A stretch of 20,000 nt of DNA from Sphaeroforma arctica JP610 (Eukaryota): the NCBI RefSeq assembly GCF_001186125.1, contig NW_014040525.1, positions 57,238 through 77,237 on the forward strand. The letters run 5' to 3'. Under the pieces are notes generated by a model, which was not told where the DNA came from, made no database searches, and saw nothing but the letters and a program-made list of their open reading frames with translations. The translations under genes and the position numbers were made by a program. Every line of letters starts with the position of its first letter. Within the stretch, counting starts at the first letter, position 1. Positions 1-20,000 of this stretch are shown piece by piece.

Positions 1-1050
1 CTATCAACAAATCTATAGCGTTTTATTACTCTTTGGGTTGTCGACGATCTCTCATATGTCACTTGTGCACCATCCATACATTATGCAGTACGTTACAAGG
101 TGCATGATGTCTGGCATAAATCGGTTAAATTTTTAATTTAATTCACGGTCTCTGCATGACGTGCCACAGCAAGAGACGATCGCACCTTTGTCAAGCCGCA
201 TATTGCAATTCACCCCTTCTACTGCAAACTTTGGTATGTTACAAGCGGTTGTTTTATTTTTACATTTTGAGACGCGAAGACTTCAACACCAAGCCACATA
301 TGTGCTAGCGAGATATAGCATATTATCTATAGCCGGTGTCTCACTATCACGCCCATCCCATACTTCTAATATCAAATCAATTTTCAGTCGGTACTATCAG
401 GCTAGTTGCTTACCAATTCTCGCCATGTTATGCACCGACTGTGTTGATTAGCCGTCGAGGCTTTTTCAAAGTCTACCTCACAGCACATTCACAATATATT
501 GTTGTGACGCATTATTATAAAGATACCATATATCGCCATCATTTGCTAGTTACGGTGTAATTCCATGTCGTATGGTAGACGAGAATACTCGCCTGAAATT
601 TTTATCGGAATTGTTCAGTTGTTCAATAGTATTTTTATACCCATCTAAAAACGCCTGCCTGGTCTGGAAATACAAACGAACAACTGCAAGATACTTCCCG
701 CTCACAACCTAAACAACAACTCGTACCCCAAGTCCATATCAGAGCCCAACCCAAGCGGATGATGGCGGAAATATTCTTGCAGCCTCCTTCAAATCGGACC
801 AGCATTGCAAAGATTCAAAAGCATAGCAATAACCATAAACATTCAACGCATCGGTCCGCTTGGAGAACTCGCTACCCGGAAAAATCTAGTTTAAATCATA
901 GAGGGCACCTCTAGACGCACGTGTTCGGTACCACAAGGATGTGCCGTGTACTTCAGAACAAAGCCAATGGGCCGAAAACGCCAAGTTGATACAATAGTTC
1001 GCCTTTACTCTAATACTCCTGAAGCGTTGCACTTTGCCTCTCATGACTTC

Positions 1051-1346
1051 AGCGAGTGGGCCGGACGCGAATAAGCACGCGCGATCGTATTTACATGCCT
1101 TGAAAAATAGGCTCGCAAAATATCAGCGAGTGGGCCAAACGCGAATAAGCACGCGCGATCGTATTAATATGCCTTGAAAGATAGGCTCGCAAAATATCAG
1201 CGAGTGGGCCGAACGCGAAAAAGCACGCGCGATTATGTTTATATGCCTCGAAAGATAGGCTTGCAAAATATCAGCGAGTGGGCCGAACGCGAATAAGCAC
1301 GTGCGATCGTATTTATATGCCTTGAAACATAGGCTTGCAAAATATC
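1051..1346. repeat. Tandem minisatellite, 4 copies of a 74-bp unit
   Basis: Unit AGCGAGTGGGCCGAACGCGAATAAGCACGCGCGATCGTATTTATATGCCTTGAAAGATAGGCTCGCAAAATATC starts at 1051, 1125, 1199 and 1273; a few substitutions per copy, no spacers. Confidence 0.95.
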
Positions 1347-2154: not shown

Positions 2155-2655
2155 TCATGAGCTATCTTCGCTGCTGCTGCCATACCCACCCAACCCAGCC
2201 AATACATTACTGACTGCCGCCTCCGGTTTTTCAGACTTCTTCACAACTGCCGCCTCCGGTTTCTCAGACTTCCTCACAATACCCAACATAGCCCCTAAGT
2301 TAAACTTTTTCTTCATCACACTCTCCTTAGAACGAGGCGCATTGGTGCTCGCACTTACTGTAACAATCTCAGGTATTATGTCAAGCTCGCTGTGATCCGT
2401 AATAGTATGTATTGCCAACCCGGGTTTAGCCTTTTTGGTCTTCGGGTTATCTGATTGGCCAAAAACAGGCCTTTTCCGAACATTTGATTGGCCCTCGTCC
2501 GAGTCGGATTCTGCCAATCTCTTGACTTTAACAGGTACAGCTGGTACCACAATATTATCGGCGGCACCGTCTGTGGCGGAAGTGTCATCCCCGGCACCTG
2601 TACTGTTGAAGATCTTGGCAATCTCCTCTTCGTCCCTCTTTTCCTGGTCTTGCAA
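2155..2655 (-). CDS. YJU2: YJU2 last exon
   Basis: CATAG|TTG acceptor in phase 0; LQDQEKRDEEEIAKIF...LAGLGGYGSSSEDSS*; the LgxYxxSxxD tail is typical of the family. Confidence 0.82.
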   Translation of the reverse strand: MQDQEKRDEEEIAKIFNSTGAGDDTSATDGAADNIVVPAVPVKVKRLAESDSDEGQSNVRKRPVFGQSDNPKTKKAKPGLAIHTITDHSELDIIPEIVTVSASTNAPRSKESVMKKKFNLGAMLGIVRKSEKPEAAVVKKSEKPEAAVSNVLAGLGGYGSSSEDSS

Positions 2656-4567
2656 CTATGTGCGTGTGTGTGAAGGAGGGGGGAGAGACAAAGCCATAAG
2701 TCACAAGAGCATCGATTCAGCAACGGTACAATCATATCAAAGTATAGTATGCCCTCGCAAGCGTGAGATCATAAAGCAGGTACGAGTGTGTACTGCCAGT
2801 AAATGGTACAGCTTGTTTCATCACAATACAGTAAAAAAAGGGGCGAAGACTAAGGTACACCTTTAATCGCCTTCACCACACACACACGCGAGCGCATATA
2901 TTCAATATACGCAATCAAAACACAAACGTTAGCCTGCACATACCTCTTTGACCAGTGCATCGTTCTTCTGCTGAATCAATTCGTTGACATCTACGGCCGC
3001 ATTCCTGTCGTTCATGTCTCGGATCTCCTCGAGAGTATCCAGCATGTCCATCTCTTTCTTCGATTGCTTCGTTCTGTTCTCTAAGGCCTGCAAAATTTAT
3101 TATAACGGATAAATATTACTGTAAGTGGAAGATTATCATACCCAACATGTGCATCTCTTTCTTCGTTTGCTTCGTTCTGCTATCTAATGCCTCGGGATAC
3201 GTCAGTACAAATACCTGCTATCCAGAGTGTGATTTTTTTAATTAAATATCCTACTGTAATTCTGAAATTCGACCTTGGTATGCTTAGGTATATGTAAATA
3301 TGCATTAGTGTCATTTGTATATCACATTTACAACTGGTGTTCTCAGTAATGTGTCCTTACGCCTTTAACCTCACCGATATGCACGGTGACCACAAATATA
3401 CTACTGGAGTTGGTAGCGAAGTATGAACTCGATACAATTATCACTAAGGTCACTGTAAGCACAACTACAAAAAGAGAGGTGCAATAACACACAAAATATA
3501 GAGACAAGTTTTAATTGAAGTATGCAACCACGCACTTCTATCAACGTAATGTGCCATGCCCAATCTTGGGCGCACGATATACCTTCATTGCATTATTCTC
3601 CTCTTCATCTTCTTTCTTCTTCTTCTTAGCCTCCACTTCATCTTCAACTTCACGCCAGAGCTCGAAATTACCTAAATCGTGTAGAAGCGAGTAACCCAAT
3701 ATACAATTGAGTATGTAAGATTCTTGAATGGAAGGTATCAAAAGATTCAGTGCTATAAACATTTCGGAGCCTGAAGTCAATGCAGAGATCGACAACCAAA
3801 AGTCCATTGGCGGCCCCATCGAAGTGACTGCTAGGGATATAACTGAGTATAAAATCCAGGATGCAACGCACAACCACATTCATCAAACAAACTTCATAAC
3901 TACTTGAGGATGTGATATTTGTACTGTCATCAAATAAAAGACAAACAACTGTATACATAACACCAGAATATGCAATATACTAGTGTCGATGCATATAAAT
4001 ACACGCATACATAGATACCACTGTGGCTAGTAGTCTCCCAGAGGACAGCACATGTACATACAAACTGAAAAACGTACAAATATGATACATTATTCAAATG
4101 CAACTCATACATAAGTCGAGATTAATATATACACACACATACAGATGAAATGTAAGTATGTTTGTATGTATGTATGTATGCATGTATATACATATAANNN
4201 NNNNNNNNNNNNNNNNNNNNNNNNNNNNNNNNNNNNNNNNNNNNNNNNNNNNNNNNNNNNNNNNNNNNNNNNNNNNNNNNNNNNNNNNNNNNNNNNNNNN
4301 NNNNNNNNNNNNNNNNNNNNNNNNNNNNNNNNNNNNNNNNNNNNNNNNNNNNNNNNNNNNNNNNNNNNNNNNNNNNNNNNNNNNNNNNNNNNNNNNNNTA
4401 TATATATATATATCGCAGCTGAATTTGAATATACATTTCGTTCCAGATGCGAAAACGTTATCAACATTCGAACATACCTGGTCATTCTTCGGTTTCTTCT
4501 GACGAGGGATGATTGAAGGATCAAAATCCGGGGGGAAATACTTGTTCAGGACTTTACGTTCAGACAT
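2155..4567 (-). CDS. YJU2: Splicing factor YJU2/CCDC94 (CWC16 family), spliced gene; visible exons 4478-4567, 3583-3671, 2944-3087, 2155-2655
   Basis: N-terminus MSERKVLNKYFPPDFDPSIIPR is the family hallmark. Later exons give (R)NFELWRE...EEENNAMK | ALENRTKQSKKEMDMLDTLEEIRDMN, matching the conserved NPMKxLENRTxDSKxEM block. Visible junctions are GT-AG and in phase. Confidence 0.93.
2213..2278. repeat. 33-bp in-frame tandem duplication in the YJU2 last exon
   Basis: ACTGCCGCCTCCGGTTT(T/C)TCAGACTTC(T/C)TCACA x2, giving KSEKPEAAV twice. Confidence 0.9.
2944..3087 (-). CDS. YJU2: YJU2 internal exon (144 nt)
   Basis: TTTTGCAG|GCC; ALENRTKQSKKEMDMLDTLEEIRDMNDRNAAVDVNELIQQKNDALVKE; GAG|GTATGT. Not in the ORF track. 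Confidence 0.9.
3583..3671 (-). CDS. YJU2: YJU2 internal exon (89 nt)
   Basis: Acceptor TTAG|GT AAT TTC; encodes NFELWREVEDEVEAKKKKKEDEEENNAMK; donor AAG|GTATAT. Confidence 0.85.
4198..4398. other. Assembly gap (201 N) flanked by (TGTA)n and (TA)n microsatellites
   Basis: N run seen directly; simple repeats on both sides. Confidence 0.99.
4478..4567 (-). CDS. YJU2: YJU2 exon 1 (30 codons)
   Basis: ATG at 4567; MSERKVLNKYFPPDFDPSIIPRQKKPKNDQ followed by donor CAG|GTATGT at 4477. Confidence 0.92.
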
Positions 4568-6514: not shown

Positions 6515-7527
6515 TTGCTGAAGGAGGTCAGAGCCAATGGGCGGCAGTTTCGGGCCTACCAGGATGCGTCGAATCAGTTGTTGGATGCAGGTAAAGTGGC
6601 TGGTAGTGAACTTGTGGCTACCGGGGCAGACAGGGCAGAGACAGCCGTCGGTGCGGTAGTCGAGCAATGTGAACATGTACGTATTCGTTACAATCATAGC
6701 ACAGAGCCGGATTGGTGTAGACTCGAAGCAGCGATTGAAGCTGTCGTGTCTGGCTGTGTCTCGGTTTGAGGTTGGCGGTTTACCCATAACCAGTTGGTAG
6801 TAGTATTAGCGCCGGGCCATTGCCGCGATCTCCTTGTTGGACCAACGTTTTGTTGAGTTCTTCCTGATGTCGTCACAGCGTTGGCGGAGGGCTACATGGT
6901 CGGGTGTACGCCCGCCCGTGGCTTTGTGTACAGTTTTCAGATGAGCATAGGTACTGTACGGGAGGCACAGTGATGGTTTATCGTGGGCCCAGGCGGGTTG
7001 CGTCAGAGGGGTAAGTGGATTTGTGCTGTCCATTGAGTCGAGTTGTATTCCCAGGCAACCTCCGATGACCTCTGAGTTAGTTACGTCTCGGACACGTTGG
7101 GGTACGCCCAAGCTGCCACAGCTGAGGATCACTAAGAGAGCATAAATTAATATATGTCGGGTCAGGGACACAGTACGCCAAACCAGCCGGCCCAATCGGC
7201 TGAGCAGGGGTGGGTCCATAACATGGAGGCCGATTTGGTACAAATTAGGGAGAATTTGGCCGGCCAGGCTCAATATCAACAATAAGTTGCTAACTTACAG
7301 CAACAAGTGGAGGGTGCCAACATGGCACAATATCAACAACAGGTTGCTGAGCTACAGCAACAGATACAGTAACTGTTAGGTCGACCGCAACGAGCTGCAG
7401 TCGGGAGGACCACATTAAAGCTCAATAAAACTGATGTCTATGAAGGCAAGGCAGATGTATCTGCAGTGCGGGAATGGGTTTATCGTATGGAGCAGATGTT
7501 TGCCGCGGAAGAAGTGAATCATGGGTA
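6515..7527 (+). pseudogene. Degenerate gag N-terminal part of element V, cut off by X1
   Basis: One frame with several stops. Q-rich repeats (AQYQQQVAELQQQ) lead into KLNKTDVYEGKADVSAVREWVYRMEQMF (~7417-7502), resembling the Ty3/gypsy capsid-start motif (KPxxFxG...vxxWlxxmExyF). The upstream extent is uncertain. Confidence 0.65.
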
Positions 7528-7633
7528 TGTAGAAAAACGGCCTCCGGTCAGTCTAAAATATCAGGATCAAATGAGATAACACGTTGGTTAAGAAGATTGC
7601 AAGGACATACCGGACGTCCAAGTTAAGCACTGA

Positions 7634-9510
7634 AAGTTCCATATGTGTGCACTAGAGCAAGATTACGAGAAAAGGTTTGATAAAATCTATACCAAAGGAG
7701 ATGAACGTATATTTCAAACTGTTTATGTAAATGGATAAAAAGTTATAGCACCTATTGATCCGGGGGCTGATGTCTCTGCTGTCTCACGCCGAGTAGCCTA
7801 CGCTACAGGTATGGCTATCCATAACGAAACAACTAATTTAATCTTGGGAAATGGCAAAGTTACCACTTGCGAAGAAGCCATTGACTATGCACACATAATG
7901 TTGTCAGATAGAAGAGAAGTAAAGACTCACCTAATCGTTACTGACATGTATCAGAAATACGGTTTGATTATTGGTATGACTAATCTGCTCAGTTTAGATA
8001 TAACTCTCACTGGTCTGCCTAATGGGCTAGACCCAAATAAAGATCAGTCAGATGATAACATGTTAAAGATACCTAAACCTCCGAAAGGTGAAGCAAATGA
8101 TATGATTCTGTACTTTACCGATATAATTATGGACTTAATTATACAAAACAGAAAGATTGCAATAACCGACTGGTGTATGTCTAAGTTCTCTAGCGGGTAC
8201 GTTAAGCTTGACTTGACAAACGTCGACTTCTCTAAGTTAAAGTGTCCTTCACATAACTACGTGAGTTGGAGACACAAAGACGTTGTCAAACCCCAAATTG
8301 AAGATTGGTTAAAACAGGGTCTAATTGAAATCAATTATGATGCAACCCCAGTTAACTTAGCTCTCTTATCGGTCGATCAATATAGAGCTGATGGAACGTG
8401 TAGTAAAACAAGAGTAGTATTAAACCTGTCGCCAATCAATAAACTACTTCTGCAACATAGTTTTCCCTTACCAAAGATAAGCGAGATACTACGCAAAATG
8501 GAAGGTGCGACTATCTTTTCCAAAGTAGACTTAAAAGCTGCATTTCATCAATTACAAATTTTTGAGCCGCATAGGAAATACTTTTCCTTTACTTGGTAAG
8601 GTAAGAAGTACCACTTTAAAGGTGCACCTGAAGGCTTTCACATGTTACCTTCTTTCTTCCAATAAGTTATGATGGAACTATTTGCAGACCTGTCGGATAA
8701 CGTATCAGTATATCTAGATGATATAGTTATCTTTATAAAGACAGCACATGAACATGCTAAACTCGTTAAAAAAAGTCTTAAAGCGACTAACCCATGCCAA
8801 ACTTAAGATTAACGAGGACAAGTGTTCTTTTGCTAAAGATACTATACACTTACTTGGTTACGAGGTATCTGCAGCAGGGGTACAAATTGATCCTGGCAAG
8901 AAACAATTTCTGTTGGATTTATCAACACCGATTTCTGAAAGAGATGTGAACTCTGTGTGTGGGTTTGTTAACTTCTTCTCGGATTCGGTACCTCATCATT
9001 CTCATTACTTAAAGCCTTTCAGTCACCTACGGCTGCACAAAGGACCTTTGGGAAAGCTTTGGACTACGGAATGTGATGATGCATTCAAGCTAGTCAAAAA
9101 TAAAGTAGTGGACGCACCCATCATGCAATACCCTGTGGATGGCGTCCCATTCCGAGTAGCAACCAACGCTTCGGGTCGAGCGGTAGGTGGAGTGCTATAC
9201 CAAACGATCAATGGAAACCGCGCTACATACAATTCTTCAGCAAGAGTTATACTAAGAGTCAACGGAATTACCCTATCGTTAAACACGAGCTCCTTGCTTT
9301 AGTTACTGCGCTAAGACAGTTTAAAGACTACCTTTATGGAAGTTACTTCAGTGTCGCCTGTGATCAAAAGTATTTAACATATTTAAAGGACATGAACCCT
9401 GATTCACAGTTGGTGAGCCGCTGGCATGACATTATTGCTAAGTTCGCTTTTAGCATTACACACATACCAGGAATACATAATCATCTACCTGACATGCTCT
9501 CTTGACTTGT
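7634..9510 (+). pseudogene. X1 protease, reverse transcriptase and RNase H
   Basis: PR IDPGADVS (~7754); RT SKVDLKAAFHQ and YLDD at 8711; RH TNAS (D>N), HELLAL, CDQK, NHLPDMLS*. Stops at ~7736, 8597 and 9503; frameshifts at ~8770 and ~9218. Confidence 0.92.
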
Positions 9511-9547
9511 CCCTGACTACCAGAAAACAGTTAAAGGGTTATTAGCA

Positions 9548-9960
9548 ACCGATTGGATGCTTAATAAGAAATGGTTTAATCTCGCTCAATCAAGATGGGG
9601 TTCATTTACTATTGATATGTTCGCCGCAGAACATAACAAACAGGTTTCTGACTATAGGTCGTTGACTCATCCTAAAGGTGATGCTTTTCAACTTGACTTA
9701 TCAAAGCATAATGCGTGGGCTAGCCCACCTTGGCAACTTATCGCACAGTTGTTGAACTATGTTAATATTACTAAATCTACCAATACGCTGTGTTGTCCCT
9801 TACGTAGCTCCGACCCATGGATACGTGATTAAATTAATATGATACAAGATGAGTCTATCTATGTCGACCGTGAAACCGACACGTTCTTGTATCAGGGATC
9901 CTATTCTATTAAGAAGATACCTTGGAAACATACCATCGTTTGTCGCATCGGTCCTGCAGG
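9548..9960 (+). pseudogene. X1 Dam-like DNA amino-methyltransferase domain (N6-adenine type; DIRS MT-like)
   Basis: TDWMLNKKWF...WGSFTIDMFAAEHN...DAFQLDLS...WASPPWQLI...LCCP...W; DMFA at 9614, SPPW at 9722-9733. Same frame as the RH C-terminus and the IN Zn finger; one internal TAA at 9830. Confidence 0.82.
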
Positions 9961-10379
9961 TACCACTAAGTGGAACCCCTCAACCGAGCTCTTACCTAAA
10001 CTAGAGGAGTCTAAGGAGTTTGAACAAAAGCTCAAGACTCGTACAACACATGCACCCAACAGGAATACAGTCGAGACAATGCCAATTGAGACGGCATTAG
10101 ATCGTAAAAACATGGAACTAGTTAAGACCATGGATCAAAGACTCAAAGCTCTAAGAGAACCTGAAGCTCGCACTCAACTAATCGAAGCGCTGCTTAAAGA
10201 ACAGCCAGGAGTTGCGAAACAGCTGAAGAAGATACTTCAACAATCTAATGTTGTTAATTACGTATCTCAGGAGTCTACCCCTCCTGATACTGAAGTTGCC
10301 CTATCTAACGGGACTATGGTTCATTCAGCCAACGTTACACAGAATCTGACTGACTTAGAAGAGCTCGAGAGTCGAGTTA

Positions 10380-11340
10380 AAATAATACATAATTTAACTC
10401 ATCGAGCATATGAGCATACTTATAAGATGGCTATTCGTGCAGGGCTTGATCACCCGGCACTGAAAGAAACCATACTCGAAGTATACCGACGCTGTACTGA
10501 TTGTGAAAAGAACCAGATCAAGCGCTACAGTTAGGCACCCCTAAAAGGTGCGACAGAAGACCAACCGATGCGCCGAGTCAAAGTCGTTTTGATTACACTC
10601 CCGCGATGTATATATCTGTCATTTCTTATGTGTGGCTTCGGGCTATAACTTGCTTTATACAATACCGAACAACCGCCCGCAAACAGTGGCAGAGTTATGC
10701 AATCACGTCTTTAATGACTTCGTTTCCCCCCGAGTACTATGTTCTGATAACGGTAGTGAGATTTGTACAGACGTAATGGAGGTACTTATACTCGTATCAG
10801 GCATGACCCATAGGCGTGGTGTTCCTTATAAACCTCAAACGCAGGGTGCAAATGAGATACGTCATAGAGAACTAAAGAAGCTATTGCGTACCGCACTAGA
10901 TGACGTTGAGGATATGTGGCCTTATCATTTGAAATGGGTTCAGACTCAAATGAATAACTGCATGAATCCTCAGACTGGAACACTCTCGTTTCACTATTTC
11001 TTTGGCCGCTATAGTGAATTACAAGCAACGTTTGACAAAACTGCGCCCGAGAAACACGTTACTCCGTGGCTACAACAGATCAAGCATATGCAGAACGTTG
11101 TTTACCCATGTTTACTCGAGCACAAAAATCGTGTCCTACTTAAAGCGTATGCCCGAAGGAATAACACTAAAAACATTGTCCAGTTTAAAGTTGGCGATTA
11201 TGATAATATTATAAATCGCAATGCCAACGTTACCGAACATTCTTCTGAGACAATTGGACCTTTTGTTATTTCCTACCATGATGAGAAGAGTGACACTTAC
11301 GAAGTGAATAACATAGATGGTACTAGTGCAACTAATCTAG
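10380..11340 (+). pseudogene. X1 DDE integrase
   Basis: HNLTH...CTDC Zn finger; core PRVLCSDNGSEI...PYKPQTQGANEIRH; GPY/F module FKVGD...IGPFVI. Stop at 10532 and frameshift at ~10610-10630. Confidence 0.9.
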
Positions 11341-11341
11341 G

Positions 11342-11364
11342 TAGGGTTTAGGGTTTCAGGGTTT
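11342..11364 (+). repeat. Short telomere-like tract TAGGG TTTAGGG TTTCAGGG TTT at the X1/W junction
   Basis: Seen directly; only about 3 units. Confidence 0.5.
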
Positions 11365-12900
11365 TATTTGAACTTATGAACCTACCGGATAACATTGATA
11401 TAATATTGGGAATGTATATTATGGGTGAGTTGGGATTAGGCTTAACCGGATTAGTATCTCCATTTCCAGAGATTAATCGTAATGTTATGAATGGACTACT
11501 GGAACCAATCAATATTCGAATGGCCCCAGACTTGTCCGAGCCAGGTGATAAACGCGCACGCCTATGCCAATACCTGAATGCTAATGACACTATTCTGGAT
11601 GGAGCTCGCTGCACACTCCCGGGTAGTGAGGTGTCACTCCCTATTCCTCGGGATAAACTCCTGGGCCTACGTCGGCAGACAAGAAATTTTGTATCTGACA
11701 AATACAAACCACATGTAACGAAACAAGTAGACAAATGGGGACACGAACTGGTCACCAATCGTCGAACATCGGCGTCGATCGTTAACCTTCCTTTGTTGGC
11801 AGTATCATCATTCACACCGTCGGGTGAACTTATTAAGGTGCGCGTGTGCTTGGACCTGCGGCAGATTAACGCTCTTATTCCGGGCGATCAGTTTATGCTT
11901 CCGAAGGTCAACGAAATCATCAGCAACTTGAAGGGCAAGCGTTACTACACCACGTTGGACTTATCGGCCGCGTACCATCGGTTACCGGTGCACGTCGATT
12001 CGCAGCACATGTTTTCGTTTACATGGAACAGTCAGCAGTACTCGTTTACGTCGGCTCCCTTTGTATTGACGACACTTACGTCACAATTTCAACGGACAAT
12101 TGGTAGTTTGATGGCAGGACTGGACGTGCAATGCTATGTTGATGATCTAATTATTGCATCGGACGATTACGAGGAGCACATTGCTATGGTTCAAGAGGTC
12201 ATTCGACGCTTGACGGAGAATAACTTCAAACTTAATCAGAAGAAATGTCACTTTGCGGTACGAGAGGTGATGATCCTGGGCAAGAAGATATCAGCTAAAG
12301 GCATTGACGTGGATCATGAGAAGCAGCAACGTTTAATTGACTGGCCAGTTCCAAGATGTCAAAGGAATATTGCCTCTGCGTTAGGATTAGCAAACTTTCT
12401 ACATGAGCATCTACCGAACATTGCACACAAGGTAGCTCCACTCCGAACCTTTTCTAAACTTAAGCCAAGGGAGTCCAGTGGGGATCGCTGGAAGCCAGAA
12501 CATCAATTGGCGTGGGACCAGATGAAAGCGGCTATCGTGTCGGTAGTCAGGTTGAACTTTCCTGTTGATGGTGTACCACTTGAGTTAGAGACTGATGCAA
12601 GCGATTATGGAATTGGTGGCGCATTGTTTCGATTGATTGACGGGCGCAAACATTACCTGATGTTCTTCTCGAAAACTCTCAACAAGGCACAACAGACATA
12701 TGCAACCCCGATGAAAGAAATATTAGCACTTACCTATGCTTTGGTCCACTTGCATGATCATATCATTGGACAGCGGTTTATTGTACACACCGACCATAAG
12801 GCTCTCATATACATGAACACTCAGCTGAAGCTGAATAGTATATTGCAGCGATGGCATCATATTATTGCACAATTCAATTTTACTATTACACATATACCTG
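11365..12900 (+). mobile_element. Gypsy element W: uninterrupted pol fragment (PR C-terminus, RT, RNase H), truncated at both ends
   Basis: 509-aa ORF: DIILGM, RVCLDLRQIN, TTLDLSAAYH, YVDD, ETDASDYGIG, KEILAL, HTDHKAL, FTITHIP; it ends exactly where the X2 LTR begins. Confidence 0.93.
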
Positions 12901-13502
12901 TGTAGAAATACGGCCTCCGGTCAGTCTAAGATATCAAGATCAAATGAGATAACGCATTGGTTTTTATTTGTATTTAAAATAATTTAATACAAGTTCTTTT
13001 TCAAATATTTACAAAGTGTTCTAAATTCACTTTGATGGCTCCAATAGCCTGAGTATTTGGTATGACTCATTTACTTGGACCTATTTGAGACGATAGTAGA
13101 TGCAAGATATCATAAACTAAATTTTATAATCTCTGAACTACTACTTACAGGTTTTGGTCTTCCCGCCAATATCCAAAATCCAATAAGTCTTTTTCTTTTT
13201 TTAACTTTTCTTCAGATGGAACTTTATTTATATTAGCTAATGTATTAACTTGACTTATGTTCTTAGGTGTCTAACTACAAATTAGACATGTGGTCATGAA
13301 CACTTAGTACTTCTAGTGAAAATTATTCAATAAAGATCAGCTAGAGGTACGTCCTGTGTGATCGAGGATATTAAGGCTCTTACCAAGAGGCAGTCCCGAT
13401 CATTCTTACACAAGCTACCACTGCTAAATCCTAACTGACTTAAATTGTATCTTAGTTTATATAACATAGTTTAAAACATAGAAATATACGTCGAAGCTTA
13501 CA
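12901..13502 (+). mobile_element. 5' LTR of element X2 (602 bp)
   Basis: TGTA...TACA termini. The left edge is confirmed by the copy starting at 7528 and the right edge by the inverted copy ending at 19927. AATAAA at 13329. Confidence 0.85.
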
Positions 13503-13600
13503 TATTTTTCAGTTATTTAGTAGTACCGTAGTGTACTGCTTCTAGACTGTCTAACAATTGCTTACTATCCAGCGACAGGACTGTAAGTATTCTATACTAC

Positions 13601-13756
13601 CTCATAGTGGCTAATGCTACCCTAAATTTAGCTACACGCTAGTTACTATACCTAGACTTTATTAATATTCCTATTCTTCTCATAGTGGCTAATACTACCC
13701 TAAAGTTAGCTACACGCTAGTTACTATACCTAGACTTTATTAATATTCCTATTCTT
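13601..13756. repeat. 2 x 78-bp direct tandem repeat in the X2 leader, just upstream of the gag ATG
   Basis: CTCATAGTGGCTAAT...CCTATTCTT at 13601 and 13679, two mismatches. Confidence 0.95.
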
Positions 13757-13767
13757 GAGCTATTACT

Positions 13768-15767
13768 ATGATTAAAGGAAATTCTAAAGGCAAGGGAGCC
13801 GCCAGCTCTAAGCCTGCTAAGCCTGTTGAGGTTCCTGAGGTTACTGGGGACGTTGGTCCGTCTGGTACTGAGCCTGCCGTTGAAGCTGTAGAGGAAGCCG
13901 TTTCTGAGCTTGGTTCTGAGGAAAACTCTGAGGATGATTCGTCGGACCCTAAAGCCTTGGAAGTGGAGGTCTCAACTGCCGCGGAAAGGCTCGCCAGCGT
14001 CCGTGTGTCTCCTAGTAGTGCAGCCCGGGGCCTCAGCTCGCAATCTGACCGCGAAAAGTCAGATATTGGAATGGCTATATCTTCTGAACAAGTGGAGGAA
14101 TCGTCTCGAGATCGACGGTTTATTACTACTAAAAGTCGGCCTAATCCGCCAACTAACAATTATGGTGGCGTTCCATTTCGTGAAATTTCATTGAATACCT
14201 CGCCACTGAACGTTGGGGCAGAAGACGCAAATGTTGGGGACGCCATAACTTGACAACGAGTGGTTGGATCTTCTCAATCTCGACGCCATTTGAACCGTAA
14301 AGATAAGCTTTTAAAGGAGCTAGCCGCTGCCACAGCTTCTGACCCTTCGATCATATCCCACGTGGCCGATATTCTTCGTACCGACGAAAAAATTTCGAGC
14401 CGGGTTTCAATTCTGAGACCCACTGGTTTACCAGCCAGCAGGGTTACTGCCGAGCCAATTACCGCTGGTGAAGTGGGTAAAAGCTCAAGATTTAATCTCT
14501 ATAGCATGGAAGCTACAATCGACCATCCTCTCGACAAACCTAACCCTGTCAGAGGCTATGATCGTATGGAAATCGAAGAGGCTTACCACCCTCATAACAT
14601 CGATCTTCATTTACCATCTAACCCTGGTAATCACGACTTTGGTAATCGTTATACCAGTACCGCACTAGAGAGTACCCACTCTAGCTCTGAAGACGAGGAA
14701 GTGAGAACCAGACACCATCGTCTCAGGCTATTACGTTCTGGTATGCAAGTCCTTGAGGATTGTCTATTGAATGACTCTGACCTTGACGATAAGGAAGCGG
14801 ATAACATTCGCTATCTAATCGATAACAAGAAAAAGGAGATAGACTCCATCTTGGCACTAGCTGCCCGTAGCACTGAACGTGAGCCTCGTGAACGCTTCAA
14901 ACCAAGCTTATAAAGCAGCTAGGTAACGCGAAGGCTGAGGTCGATTTCTCTACTAATTAGAGTACAGTGGAGACACTGAAGGCTTTTGACCAACTTAAGG
15001 AGTCTGCCAGCCTTAAGGATAAGCAGATGATGAATGCCTTTATTCATTTCTGTGAGTCAGAAGAATGGAAAACTATCTTGAAGGCCCACGAGCCCAACTG
15101 GAAAGCCCTACCTTGGCGCCAGTTGCGTGAGAATATACTTAACGCCTTCTTTGAAAATGCACGTGACCGTGACCTTCTAGAGTCTCGCAAGTCCGTTGCG
15201 ACCGATACTACTATTCGAGGTGCTCTAGCTCATATGACACATATGAACACTCGGATGGGAGGTTGTACCTATACTGGCGAATATTTATTAATTTGTCAGA
15301 TGATGGAGACTCTGGGGGCTAACTTTTTTAAAAAGGTCAATGATGATATCATCGCCTATGGTGATTTGCGATATATGCCTTGGTCTGTCTTTGAAAAGAT
15401 AGTTCAAAAGCATACCAATCCATCTACTAGAGTACTTAGTACCGCGAGCTTTACCCAGCCCGCTAAGCGTACCGCGATAGAGAATAACACTGCGCGTAAT
15501 ACTAAAAAACCTTGCACTACTGCCGGAGGTGGTAAAGGCTCTACTTCTACTGAACCAAAGGGTGAAAGGAAGGAGAGATTACCTTGCAAGAAGTGTGGTT
15601 ACAACCTCACTAAACTTGATGACAAGTGGAATGGTAAGCACGACTCTGTTAAGTGTGCACCAGGCAAGCCAAACTTTGGACACTATATGAAAGAGTGTAC
15701 TACTTGCAAACGTACTAACGGTTGGCACAAAGATGATTGCAAGGACATACCGGACGTTCAAGTTTAA
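13768..15767 (+). pseudogene. X2 gag (about 660 codons; 2 stops and 1 frameshift)
   Basis: ORFs 13768-14253 and 14260-14913 share a frame, then 14967-15767 follows. Lies between the LTR and protease; ends in two Cys/His knuckles. Confidence 0.8.
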
Positions 15768-16124
15768 GCACTATCAGTTCCATATGTGTGCACTAGAGCA
15801 AGATTATGAGAAAAAGTTTAATAAAATCTATACCAAAGGAGATGAACGTATATTTCAAATCGTTTATGTAAATGGATAAAAAGTTATAGCACCTATTGAC
15901 CCAGGGGCTGAAGTCTCTGATATCTCACGCCGAGTAGTTTACGCTACAGATATGGCTATCCATAACGAAACAATTAATTTAATCTTGGGAAATGGCAAAG
16001 TTACCACTTGCGAAGAAGCCATTGACTATGCACACATAATGTTGTCAGATAGAAGAGAAGTAAAGACTCACCTAATCGTTTCTGACATGTATCAGAAATA
16101 CGATTTAATTATTGGTATGACTAA
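15766..16124 (+). pseudogene. X2 protease, truncated
   Basis: VYVNG*KVIAPIDPGAEVS...YDLIIGMT; about 94% identical to X1 by manual count (22 substitutions and 1 indel over ~394 nt). Confidence 0.88.
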
Positions 16125-17969
16125 GGGTTTGGTACGAAGCGTGATAACATATTCGGTAAATGGTTATGTATCCCTGGTAGATGTTTGATATCGAAATGAA
16201 ACTTTAATATCGTATCATACCATTGGCTCAGTAATTGAGAGTCTGGCTTCATCTCTTTCATATATTGAAGGGACTTCTGATCACACATCAGCGTAAAAGC
16301 TGTTCCATATAGGTAATCGCGGAAGTGTGTTAAAGCTGCTACTATGACTAGTAGCTCTTGCTTCACAGTTGGATAATTCAATTGTGATGCATTCATTGCT
16401 CGGCTAAAGAATTATATATACCTAGGTTTATTATCTATAACCTGATATAATACTCCTCCTAAGGCTAAGTCGGAGGCGTCCGTTGCTATTTCAAACGACA
16501 CGCCATCGACTGGTCCTTGTACAACTGGGGCTTGTTGGACTGGGTGTTTGAGCGCTTTAAATGCGTCATCACACTCTTTAATCCACAAGTCTCCTAGTTT
16601 GTCTTTATGACATATTAAGTGTCCAAAGGTTCAGGTGTTCCAGCTTACCGGGGTCGATTTTATTACTTTCCCCAGATATACGATAGCCTAAGAGCTGTAT
16701 TTCGCTCATGGCGAAGTGACATTTCTTCTCGTTCATCTTGAAGTTTTGTTCGTTGAGTCTCTGAAGGACTCGCCTGACTAATGCGGTATGTTCGCCCTTA
16801 GTTTTAGAAAAGATGACTATGTCATCTATATAGACTTGCACGTTCGGCATGTCAGCAAACATTTCCTCCATTACTTGTTGGAAGAATGCTGGTAAGGAGT
16901 GCAACCCGAAAGGTGCACCTCTAAACCTGTATTGTTTACCTTTCCAGGTAAAACCAAAGTACTTACACTGGGGTTCGTAAATTTGCATTTGATGATACCC
17001 CTTTGTTAGGTCTATGAATGTAAACACCGTAGCACCTTCCATTCGTCTCAGTAACTCGTTTATACGAGGGAGATGGAAACTATGAGTCGGCAATAACTTA
17101 TTTATTGGATTCATATACTGACATACTCTGACTTTCTTAAATGTTCCGTCAGAGTTGTGTTGATCAACTGCCAATAATGCTAAGGTAACTGAGGGCTGTT
17201 GGTAATTGATTTCGATTACCCTATCGGATATCCATTTATCGACTTGTTCTTTAACTACAGCTTTGTGTCTCCAAGAAACATAGTTTCTTGAAGGACATTT
17301 GAGCTTAGTAAAGTCTACCTTGGTTAAGTCAAGGCTGACGTGTCCGTCGTTGAAGCAGAATATCGCCCAGTCGGTTATTTTTATCTTCTTATTTACTAAT
17401 ATACGATCCATTATCTTATCGGCAAAGCCAGGAATTAATTCCTCGACTATGTCCGATGGTGGTGTATATGGTTTTAGACAATTATCGTCTGACTGATCCT
17501 TTAATGGATCTATGTTGTTGGGTAAGCCTGTTACGGTTATCCCTCACGTGAGCAAATCGCTCATTCCGACTATAATGTCGTACTTCTGTGACATCTTAAC
17601 GATCCCAGCTTGAGTCGTGATATTTCTATCATCGGCCAGGGAGATATTAACATCTGTGGCCATGGTATCACACTTAGAAGTTTTGTCAACTGCTAAAATT
17701 AGGTGAGGGGTTTGAGTTCGCCTTTCAATGTCTATCATTAATGCAAAGCGGTCGGATATACATGAAATTTCTGAACCAGGATCAATCAATGCAAGTGCTT
17801 TATTTCCGTTGCAATATATAGGGATTTTTACACGCTCATCTAAGGAGTCGCTGTATTTTCTTTGTAACGATTGTACCTGGTAGTACTTTCACTCTAACTT
17901 AATGTCGGGCTTATTGTCGCAAGACTTGGCGTGATAGCCATTGGTCTTCTCACACTTGTCACACTTAGT
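16125..17969 (-). mobile_element. Gypsy element Z (diverged relative of X): gag knuckle, PR, RT, RNase H; truncated at both ends
   Basis: CDKCEKTNGYHAKSC; LIDPGSEIS; IDLTKGYHQ; YIDD; ATDASDLALGG; KQELLV; NHLPNMLSR. Shares LKCPSxNYVSWRHK with X1. Stops, plus a deletion/frameshift near 16610. Confidence 0.92.
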
Positions 17970-18008
17970 AAGAAAGCGTCGTTGTCGTCGACTCTCACGT
18001 GTTTGAAT

Positions 18009-18152
18009 CCGTTTGCGATATGCGGGCACGACGTTGTGGTCGTCAAAGGCATCGGCTGTCACCCATGTAGGAGATCCTTCCAACCAACGTACCAAATATT
18101 CCGACTGTTGAGTCGCCTCATTATGACGGTGCGATATGATATGTCGAAATGT
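18009..18152 (-). other. Chromodomain at the integrase C-terminus of Y
   Basis: FRHIISHR...EYLVRWLEGSPTWVTADAFDDHNVVPAYRK matches chromodomain motifs (IlxHR, eYLVkW, TWxxxxxf, vxxY). Confidence 0.85.
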
Positions 18153-19449
18153 CGACCCGCCCTCTCTCCATAGAGATTCATCAAGTGGTGGTTCCGTAAC
18201 CAGATGTACAAGCCGAATAATCTCCACATTCTCGGGTCGGTCTCTGAGCTCAGGCGGCTTGCTGCCATCCTTTGCTCGTAGATGGTAACTCTAATTTTCC
18301 CGACTATGAATCACGTACGGACCAAGCAGTGGTTTCATGGCTTTGGTCGTTGCTCCCTGAGCGAGTATCATGACGACGTCCCCCGTCTTAAATTCGATCA
18401 AATCAAATTTACGCATTTGATCCGAAGCCTCTGCCATGGCATCAGTATACTTAATCGGTTTCTGATGAAGTTTTGGTAGGATAGTCTTCTCCAAATCATC
18501 CAGCCTCTTTAACCATGCATCATTCGTGGTAGGAATATGACCAGGTAAGTCATCAGTCATGATTGCAAACGGGACATGTCGCCGACCAAAATAAACGCTG
18601 AATGGTGCTGACTTGTGACGTCGTGATATCCGAAGGTTCTGGTATAACATAGTAAACGGCGGACGTTCATCCCACAACTCCGGACAACCAACACACAATG
18701 CGCGCACGCATTTGTGGATTTCCTTATGTCGGCGCTCCGCCGCGCCCAACGTCTGCGGGTGGTATGGTTGGGATGTCTTGTGCATAATGCCCAACGCTCG
18801 TGTGATGGATTTGACAATATTGTTTACAAATTTGGTGCCCTCGTCACTCTGAATCTTACGAGGAATTCTATGCTCACCAAACACTGACACAAACTCTGCC
18901 ACCACCTGTCTTTGCATCCTTCGCAGGTATCGCCCGTAGAATAGAGTAGCCCGACGCCACATCAAGCACATGTAAAATAAATTTGGTTCCTTTAGTGGAT
19001 GTGACCACCATAGAAATGAGATCCATTTGTATGTGATCCCAGGGATATCAAGCGGTAATATTCATTAAAGGATGAAAACCTTTCTTCATTGTATCGTTGC
19101 CCAAGCATGTGCGACATAACTTGCGGACTTCTTCTGTGAATGGAAGCATCTGGTCCCAGCTATGTCCATCGTCGCGCATCTGTTGTACTGTCACTGCTGG
19201 AGCCGGATGTCCTTGTTCGTGAAATTGACATGTCAACTGTACACGACGGTTCGCTTCCTCGTGCCCTGGATGATTCATCACTGTAGCACCCGCACATATC
19301 TCAGGAATTTGTACAGCGGTCTGTCGCGTTCGTTACGTCATAACCGGTTGTGCCCAATCTTCCTGATAACGTGTACCAGCGTCTTCACATACAGGTACCT
19401 CCAAGCCTACGTCACACCAAAATGATGGATTGACTTTGTACCCAGATGG

Positions 19450-19855
19450 AGGGCCAATACGTACCACGATGGTATGCTCCCACGGGTATTTACCACAAGC
19501 TTGTGAGCCGTGATTCAAGAATGCGTGAGCCGTACGTGGGATAAGTAGCGGGTCTGCTTGCATCATCGATAGAAGTAAAGGGAACCATGGCGCACGTGTG
19601 TTCAACGGTAAACATATTGTTGCCGACGCCTTGTCCTTCAACACATTACGCAACACCTTACGTATATGACGCCAAGGTGGGCTCATCCATGCGTTGTATT
19701 TACTCCAGTCAAACTTAAACGCCCCGCCATCCTTGCCGTACGACCAGTATTGGCGAAGCTGAGCGTTATGACTCGAGGCAAAAGCGTCGACGTCGTTTAG
19801 TCCAAAGTGCTTCTGGATCTGGTCAAAGAAATCCGGAAACAACTTCCAACATGAC
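19450..19855 (-). CDS. Y Dam-like DNA amino-methyltransferase domain (no internal stop)
   Basis: WKLFPDFF...FGLNDVDAFASSHNAQL...GAFKFDWS...WMSPPWRHIRKVL...ATICLP...PWF; SPPW at 19672-19683. Confidence 0.85.
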
Positions 19856-19926
19856 GTATAGAACACCACGGGGTAATTGATATCCGCCGTACCCTCATAA
19901 ACACGACTCCACATGTCTGGCAACTG

Positions 19927-20000
19927 TGTAAACTTCGATGGATATTTCTGTGTTTTAAATTATGTTATATAAAGTAAGATACAATTTAAGTCAGTTAGGG
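19927..20000 (-). mobile_element. 3' end of an X-family LTR, continuing beyond the window
   Basis: The reverse complement matches 13430-13502 and ends ...GTTTACA adjacent to Y coding sequence. Confidence 0.9.

What the first reader, a model, noticed from the sequence alone, without database searches (positions are those of the whole stretch)
9548..9960. Ty3/gypsy LTR retrotransposon with a Dam-like DNA methyltransferase built into pol, between RNase H and the DDE integrase
Seen: RH C-terminus, a domain with DMFA and SPPW motifs, and the HHCC integrase finger all lie in one frame (apart from point stops), in an element with a TG..CA LTR and PR-RT-RH-IN order. Known: this motif pattern (WG..IDlFA..N, DAF..W, xPP[FW]xlI, LvxPxW) is the phage-Dam-like MT domain that follows RH in DIRS tyrosine-recombinase elements; canonical gypsy pol lacks it. 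Inference: the element may methylate its own cDNA (6mA or 4mC) before integration, to mimic an active host mark or evade silencing. I cannot confirm novelty; similar elements may already be reported in unicellular eukaryotes.
Basis: partly seen in the sequence, partly recalled or inferred. Interest (0 to 1): 0.88.

Follow-up and report, generated by a model that had tools for sequence, protein, structure and literature searches.

The report
Gypsy retrotransposon carrying adenine methyltransferase domain
This is a broken copy of a gypsy-type jumping gene whose enzyme chain holds, between RNase H and integrase, a well-conserved domain with a predicted adenine-methyltransferase fold that likely marks the element's own copying intermediates, a design that a 2026 preprint has already described in what is likely the same group of single-celled hosts.

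Summary
Window 9518-9979 encodes a Dam-like (PF05869) domain in frame between RNase H and the integrase zinc finger. The two stops flanking or inside it are private decay; other copies lack them and read NPPW instead of this copy's SPPW. Two uninterrupted relatives hold PR-RT-RH-Dam-IN in one ORF. A second, 40%-identical family in the window has the same order. The RT groups with gypsy, not DIRS, and the domain is as conserved as RT. The model (pLDDT 92) best matches the cap adenosine methyltransferase PCIF1. The design is known: DAM-LTRs, bioRxiv 10.64898/2026.05.21.726589, including a Sphaeroforma lineage, the genus of the nearest named protein. This scan has also reported such elements on other DNA. 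Small additions: a PCIF1-like fold that points to RNA or RNA/DNA-hybrid substrates, a cryptic chromodomain-like tail where the preprint reports none, and a copia polyprotein with the same domain. Catalysis is unproven; the preprint's E. coli assay was negative.

The parts
7528..7589 (+). First 62 bp of the family A 5' LTR, joined to the last codons of gag (internal deletion)
   Evidence: 92% identical to 12901-12962; 7590-7983 is 94% identical to 15730-16124
7643..7990 (+). Aspartyl protease of family A copy 1
   Evidence: Pfam gag-asp_proteas E 0.0048; collinear with P0004
8258..8900 (+). Reverse transcriptase (YLDD), two stops and a frameshift
9147..9505 (+). RNase H, frameshift near 9214, stop at 9503
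   Evidence: PF17917 E 9.4e-19
9518..9979 (+). Dam-like / PCIF1-like N6-adenine methyltransferase domain (the finding); DMFA 9614-9625, xPPW 9722-9733, stop at 9830
   Evidence: PF05869; model pLDDT 92; fold matches
9980..10360 (+). Poorly conserved linker
   Evidence: 15% mean identity among 8 relatives
10361..11342 (+). Integrase: HHCC finger 10388-10504 and DDE core, frameshift near 10600, cut off before the C-terminal tail
   Evidence: PF17921 weak, rve E 3.9e-06; 77-89% identical to P0004
11400..12900 (+). RT-RNase H of a more distant family (D) of the same RT clade, interrupted by the family A LTR
12901..13502 (+). Whole family A LTR, 602 bp, TG..CA
   Evidence: its 3' end is confirmed by varied flanks at the matching LTR end at 19927
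13759..16124 (+). gag and protease of family A copy 2, cut off
16125..17976 (-). gag end, PR, RT and RNase H of related family C, cut off where the Dam domain would begin
   Evidence: 51-63% aa identity to family A; the junction at 17976 is local
17977..19925 (-). Family B: RNase H end, Dam-like domain (19863-19432), integrase, chromodomain-like tail (18152-17982)
   Evidence: PF05869 above cut-off, rve; Chromo E 0.007; other copies bridge Dam-IN and IN-tail

Best explanation
The stretch is the Dam-like domain of a decayed Ty3/gypsy DAM-LTR retrotransposon, whose intact relatives encode PR-RT-RNase H-Dam-integrase as one protein; the domain is predicted to be a SAM-dependent N6-adenine methyltransferase that likely travels in the particle with RT and would methylate the element's RNA/DNA-hybrid or single-stranded cDNA intermediates, so that host AMT1 would keep the new insertion 6mA-marked and transcribed. 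Shown: the architecture, its conservation, the gypsy RT, the retained motifs. Predicted: the fold. Inferred: packaging, catalysis, substrate, hand-over to AMT1. This window copy is itself dead.
For: Single-ORF relatives P0004 (1400 aa, 77-89% identical to this copy) and P0005 (1376 aa, about 50%) carry the domain at the same place. In 4 of 4 laid runs nearly all depth lacks the two stops and gives NPPW. The RT sits in a 12-row clade (SH-aLRT 99) whose 9 non-window members all have Dam between RNase H and integrase, apart from 31 DIRS-like RTs (100); the same 9 group with both window domains in the Dam tree (94). Mean identity among 8 full-length members: Dam 41%, RT 44%, RNase H 42%, integrase core 36%, linker 15%. 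NPP[W/F] is kept in 16 of 18 close relatives listed. The model has pLDDT 92 and matches PCIF1 best (Foldseek E 9e-05, TM 0.65; VIA Z 10.7, rmsd 3.2, 144 aligned), T4 Dam at Z 8.0. [quoted passage not shown] The preprint reports more 6mA and more transcription on DAM-LTRs than on other LTRs in Sphaeroforma arctica and Abeoforma whisleri.
Against: No activity has been shown: eukaryotic DAMs gave no 6mA gain in Dam-deficient E. coli (preprint). Iyer et al. judged DIRS1 MTase domains likely inactive (PMC4738411 passage). The closest intact relative P0004 reads CPPW, as does P0024 (2 of 18), and the window's family B copy reads SPPW. The 6mA enrichment in the preprint is a correlation and could follow from transcription. 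The nearest folds are RNA enzymes, which favours an RNA substrate as much as a DNA one. Host AMT1 was not tested here (no genome held).
Confidence: 0.5

Rival explanations
1. The domain is an active PCIF1-like RNA methyltransferase that marks the element's own transcript (cap-proximal or internal adenosine) and leaves DNA alone; 6mA on insertions is laid by host AMT1 because they are transcribed.
For: Best fold match is PCIF1, followed by KsgA, DIMT1, Erm and RlmJ, in two aligners; weak Pfam PCIF1_WW hits on the family B domain (E 0.05) and on P0149 and P0058 (E 5e-05, 8e-05). Iyer et al. put the DIRS1 MTase in the PCIF1 clade. The negative E. coli DNA assay and the retention in DIRS of hosts without 6mA fit this.
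Against: Sequence identity to PCIF1 is 13-15% and T4 Dam is only 2.7 Z units lower; a shared fold shows no substrate. The preprint's tree roots these domains among prokaryotic DNA methyltransferases and finds DAM-LTRs mostly in AMT1 hosts, 9 of 13.
Confidence: 0.22
2. The domain is kept as a non-catalytic SAM- or nucleic-acid-binding module that helps reverse transcription or integration.
For: Iyer et al. 'likely inactive'; negative E. coli assay; CPPW in P0004 and P0024; FPPF in 42 of 151 related domains, mostly the more distant ones.
Against: In this clade NPP[W/F] is kept in 16 of 18 relatives and in nearly all depth of family A, across RTs that are only 37-61% identical.
Confidence: 0.22
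3. The domain is an N4-cytosine methyltransferase, as SPPW would suggest.
For: SPPW in both window copies.
Against: Family A copies in 4 of 4 runs read NPPW and none of 18 close relatives has S. The family B position was not among the rows shown.
Confidence: 0.04
4. The arrangement is a chance junction of a DIRS pol end with a gypsy integrase in a nest of broken elements.
For: The window is a nest with several local junctions (7589/7590, 11342, 12900, 16124, 17976, 19926).
Against: Uninterrupted ORFs with the same order, gypsy RT, contigs of other copies that bridge RNase H to Dam and Dam to integrase, and a second family in the window with the same order.
Confidence: 0.02

Closest known systems
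DAM-LTR retrotransposons, ichthyosporean lineage (Fernandez-Moreno et al., bioRxiv 10.64898/2026.05.21.726589; whole main text read, figures and supplements not seen)
   Same: Ty3/gypsy RT, DDE integrase, PF05869 domain inside pol, NPP catalytic triplet; the nearest named protein is from Sphaeroforma arctica, one of the lineage's three hosts.
   Different: The preprint says this lineage lacks chromodomains; family B and most clade members tested have a divergent chromodomain-like tail below Pfam's cut-off. The preprint compares the domain with T4 and E. coli Dam; the best fold match here is PCIF1. Whether these very families are in its set could not be checked.
MT domain of DIRS1-group tyrosine-recombinase retrotransposons (Iyer et al., PMC4738411, passages seen; Poulter and Goodwin 2005 only as cited there)
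   Same: Homologous domain directly after RNase H; hundreds of such proteins are hit by the window profile.
   Different: Here the domain is followed by a DDE integrase in the same ORF, a protease precedes RT, and RT and Dam both branch apart from the DIRS-like set.
PCIF1/CAPAM cap-specific adenosine N6-methyltransferase (PDB 6irx)
   Same: Best structural match, Z 10.7 over 144 residues.
   Different: 13-15% identity; only the catalytic core; no WW domain; part of a retrotransposon polyprotein.
Retrotransposons with cytosine methyltransferases (de Mendoza et al., PMC5890265; search listing and start of abstract only)
   Same: A DNA-modifying enzyme domain captured in a retrotransposon.
   Different: C5-cytosine enzymes, another family; not what is here.

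Membership tests
DAM-LTR retrotransposon | Dam domain PF05869 | tested here: met
   E 4.2e-06 for the finding (27.0 bits, cut-off 28.1); family B 35.2 bits; P0005 E 7.4e-06, P0004 E 7.6e-05
DAM-LTR retrotransposon | RT of Ty3/gypsy type, not DIRS | tested here: met
   Quick tree, 21 integrase-side rows against 31 DIRS-like rows, support 100; best PDB match of the related family C RT is Ty3 RT, E 1.5e-30
DAM-LTR retrotransposon | DDE integrase and protease in pol | tested here: met
DAM-LTR retrotransposon | Direct TG..CA LTRs | tested here: inconclusive
   One whole 602-bp LTR and two partial copies; no copy with both LTRs or a target-site duplication in the window
DAM-LTR retrotransposon | NPP catalytic triplet | tested here: met
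   Family level. This copy reads SPPW; P0004 reads CPPW
DAM-LTR retrotransposon | 6mA enrichment on insertions; methyltransferase activity | not testable with these tools
   Needs modified-base calls and enzyme assays
Ichthyosporean DAM-LTR lineage | Host is an ichthyosporean | tested here: inconclusive
   Only named relative is SARC_02989 of S. arctica, 67-73% identical to family B; a mobile sequence does not fix the host, and no host gene was placed
Ichthyosporean DAM-LTR lineage | Lacks a chromodomain | tested here: inconclusive
   True at Pfam's cut-off; not true by a more sensitive profile for family B and 5 of 8 full-length clade members; family A tails match only indirectly
Ichthyosporean DAM-LTR lineage | Dam groups with the published Pirum/Abeoforma/Sphaeroforma sequences | not testable with these tools
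DIRS1-group element | DIRS-type RT | tested here: not met
DIRS1-group element | Tyrosine recombinase instead of DDE integrase, no protease | tested here: not met
   Protease and rve integrase are present in one ORF

The most novel reading that the evidence does not exclude
These DAM-LTRs are a cryptic chromovirus-like, possibly self-priming clade whose captured domain is an active PCIF1-type enzyme that methylates the element's RNA or RNA/DNA hybrid inside the particle rather than double-stranded DNA. That would explain the failed E. coli assay, and would make one polyprotein both write an adenine mark on its genome and read chromatin at the target.
Probability: 0.25. Interest if true: 0.6.

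Novelty: already known. Interest (0 to 1): 0.2.

Why it matters
As an architecture it is already in print, likely in the same host group, so this copy adds little. What it offers is a test: intact NPPW polyproteins (P0005 and others) and a PCIF1-like fold point to RNA, hybrid and single-stranded substrates that the published assay did not try. A positive result would settle what the methyltransferase domain of DIRS and DAM-LTR elements does, a question open since the domain was first noted.

Tried and rejected
No genome is held for the window, so no genome-wide copy search, dN/dS on intact copies or AMT1 search was possible. A single-sequence fold of the family B domain failed (pLDDT 38). The search for longer relatives of the family B domain found none among 77 candidates. 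A profile search of PDB sequences found nothing below E 0.78. PHROGs gave no hit for the finding's own domain and phrog_111 DNA methyltransferase (E 7.7e-07) for family B. The scan of metagenome contigs with P0004 found no locus, so no whole element with both LTRs was seen. The cluster look-up for names could not be made. No RNA holder on record was listed; runs guessed to be RNA carry contigs over the domain but show no expression. Dinucleotide counts gave no signal: ApT observed/expected 0.85-1.18 over nine regions, host flank 1.09. The RT A-versus-C row was read out of frame and is discarded; one search gives that comparison. The careful RT tree did not finish and the quick tree was used. 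A six-term paper search on the DIRS MT domain found nothing. Rejected: chance junction, DIRS identity, 4mC.

Full report
Observation. The frame that starts in the RNase H C-terminus runs through the candidate domain and the integrase zinc finger with point stops at 9503, 9830 and 10532. Pfam finds RNase H before the domain, Dam PF05869 on it (E 4.2e-06, 27.0 bits, cut-off 28.1) and the integrase core after it. The copy is dead: frameshifts in RT, RNase H and integrase, only 62 bp of its 5' LTR joined to the end of gag, and a cut at about 11342. The whole 602-bp TG..CA LTR of the family lies at 12901-13502 in front of a second copy's gag.

Surroundings. From about 7100 to 20000 the window is a nest of related elements. 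Family B on the minus strand (19925-17977) has the end of RNase H, an unbroken Dam domain above Pfam's cut-off (35.2 bits), integrase and a chromodomain-like tail. Its Dam is 40.6% identical to the finding over 133 aa (best of 500 shuffles 51 against 270), with codon-position identities 53/64/35%, while the integrase cores are 27% identical. Families C (16125-17976) and D (11400-12900) are PR/RT/RNase H pieces cut off before the place where Dam would stand.

Other copies. 20 of 24 listed runs hold part of the stretch, none half of it. I laid 4 of them on 9000-11300. In all four, over 99% of summed contig depth differs from the window at 9503 and 9831, so that both stops are absent, and at 9723, which turns SPPW into NPPW. 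Contigs bridge RNase H to Dam (X14 record 8, X16 record 16). For family B, contigs bridge Dam to the integrase finger and the integrase core to the tail; the junction at 17976 is local (4 runs laid). Depth is no copy number, and the runs guessed to be RNA show no expression.

Intact relatives. The PR-RT query returned 7 proteins. P0004 (1400 aa, 77-89% identical to the copy) and P0005 (1376 aa, about 50%) hold PR-RT-RNase H-Dam-integrase in one ORF. A profile of the two window domains hit 4145 cluster representatives at E up to 0.001, of which 150 are listed. I scanned 28 of the 150 with Pfam, chosen as the best-scoring and the longest. From all fetched proteins, 49 gave an RT stretch long enough for a tree: 13 with Dam and integrase, 31 with Dam at the C-terminus and no integrase (called DIRS-like; their recombinase ORFs were not checked), 5 without Dam. 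In the quick RT tree the three window RTs lie in a 12-row clade (SH-aLRT 99) whose 9 other members are all Dam-plus-integrase proteins; the DIRS-like rows are one side of a branch with support 100. In the Dam tree the same 9 and both window domains form a group with support 94. This fits one old capture inherited with RT. Among 8 full-length members (P0017, cut in integrase, left out) mean identity is RT 44%, RNase H 42%, Dam 41%, integrase core 36%, linker 15%; NPP[W/F] is kept in 16 of 18 close relatives listed and two, among them P0004, read CPPW.

Fold. With a 58-row alignment the finding's domain (X at the stop) folds at pLDDT 92, pTM 0.87. Foldseek's four matches at E up to 0.001 are all PCIF1/CAPAM (best E 9e-05, TM 0.65), followed by KsgA and RlmJ. 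VIA-align against 48,161 chains also ranks PCIF1 first (Z 10.7, rmsd 3.2, 144 aligned), then KsgA 8.7, DIMT1 8.6, ErmE 8.4, T4 Dam 8.0, E. coli Dam 7.4. So it is an N6-adenine-type Rossmann methyltransferase core; the fold does not tell the substrate. The Atlas gives only unnamed eukaryotic clusters, one with 11% PF05869.

Host. The window has intron-bearing genes (Yju2 N-terminus). The only named relative of the Dam region is SARC_02989 of Sphaeroforma arctica, 67-73% identical to family B. An ichthyosporean host is therefore likely but rests on a mobile sequence.

What is known. The first paper search found bioRxiv 10.64898/2026.05.21.726589; I read its whole main text, not its figures or supplements, which hold the sequences and could change the membership and chromodomain points. 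It names DAM-LTRs, five lineages, one of them in Pirum, Abeoforma and S. arctica. Iyer et al. (PMC4738411, passages) place the DIRS1 MTase in the PCIF1 clade and call it likely inactive. PCIF1 prefers ssRNA over hybrid, ssDNA and dsDNA (PMC9178792, abstract only). The scan's own notes hold 23 similar findings in at least 3 other genomes; I had the preprint before reading them.

Mechanism. Most likely the domain is made as part of Pol, enters the particle with RT, and methylates adenines on hybrid or single-stranded intermediates, seeding a mark that host AMT1 keeps after integration (0.5). Architecture, conservation and motifs are shown, the fold is predicted, every later step is inferred. An RNA-only enzyme (0.22) and a non-catalytic module (0.22) remain open; 4mC and a chance junction are all but excluded.

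Small additions. First, the preprint says the ichthyosporean lineage lacks chromodomains. A profile from five Pfam-called chromodomains scores family B's tail at 16.9 bits and 5 of 8 full-length clade members above all 200 shuffles (P0013, P0015, P0016, P0018, P0026); P0030, P0004 and P0005 are not detected. A profile of the B, P0004 and P0005 tails, which matches those three by construction, picks up P0018, P0020, P0026 and P0030 at 17-28 bits. The only PDB matches of the B tail are stretches of cpSRP43, best E 0.004 (that these are chromodomains is recalled). For the finding's own family the call is thus indirect, and the hosts of the unnamed proteins are unknown. Second, no tRNA-type TGG primer site follows the LTR; 13509-13524 can pair with 13420-13438 in the LTR, but the region folds no better than 22 of 200 shuffles, so self-priming as in Tf1 (PMC4600332, passages) is only a lead. 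Third, P0101 is a copia-type polyprotein with the same domain; 'copia' does not occur in the preprint's main text, and one paper search and one look-up in the scan's notes showed no such report by title, start of abstract or note.

Verdict. Real, correctly read, and already described. Interest 0.2.

Noticed in passing
P0101: A Ty1/copia-type polyprotein (integrase, SH3, then RVT_2) carries the same Dam-like domain with NPPF between integrase and RT. 'Copia' is absent from the preprint's main text. One unnamed protein; it could be a chimera.
   Followed up: partly
P0043, P0056: Long polyproteins with an apurinic-type endonuclease domain, then Dam, RT, RNase H and an integrase zinc finger (P0056 also a protease): a LINE/LTR mosaic, perhaps the mixed Euglena group of the preprint.
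   Followed up: no
window 17982-18152 (-): Divergent chromodomain-like tail on family B integrase, below Pfam's cut-off; similar tails across the clade.
   Followed up: partly
window 13420-13438 and 13509-13524: No TGG primer site after the 5' LTR; a 16-pair stem between LTR and leader suggests self-priming, but z is only -1.4.
   Followed up: partly
window 7146-7527: Start of another gag-like frame with stops, into which family A copy 1 is inserted.
   Followed up: no
window 2155-4564 (-): Host coding pieces: the N-terminus of a Yju2/Saf4 splicing factor near 4400-4564 and an unassigned 166-aa exon-like frame at 2155-2655; an assembly gap of 201 N at 4198-4398.
   Followed up: no
window 1038-1346 and 13601-13756: Tandem repeats: 74-nt units at 1038-1346, and two 78-nt units in the family A leader before gag.
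   Followed up: no
P0003 (SARC_02989): An annotated S. arctica 'hypothetical protein' is a gene model over a family B-like Dam-linker-integrase stretch, with the Dam core missing.
   Followed up: partly
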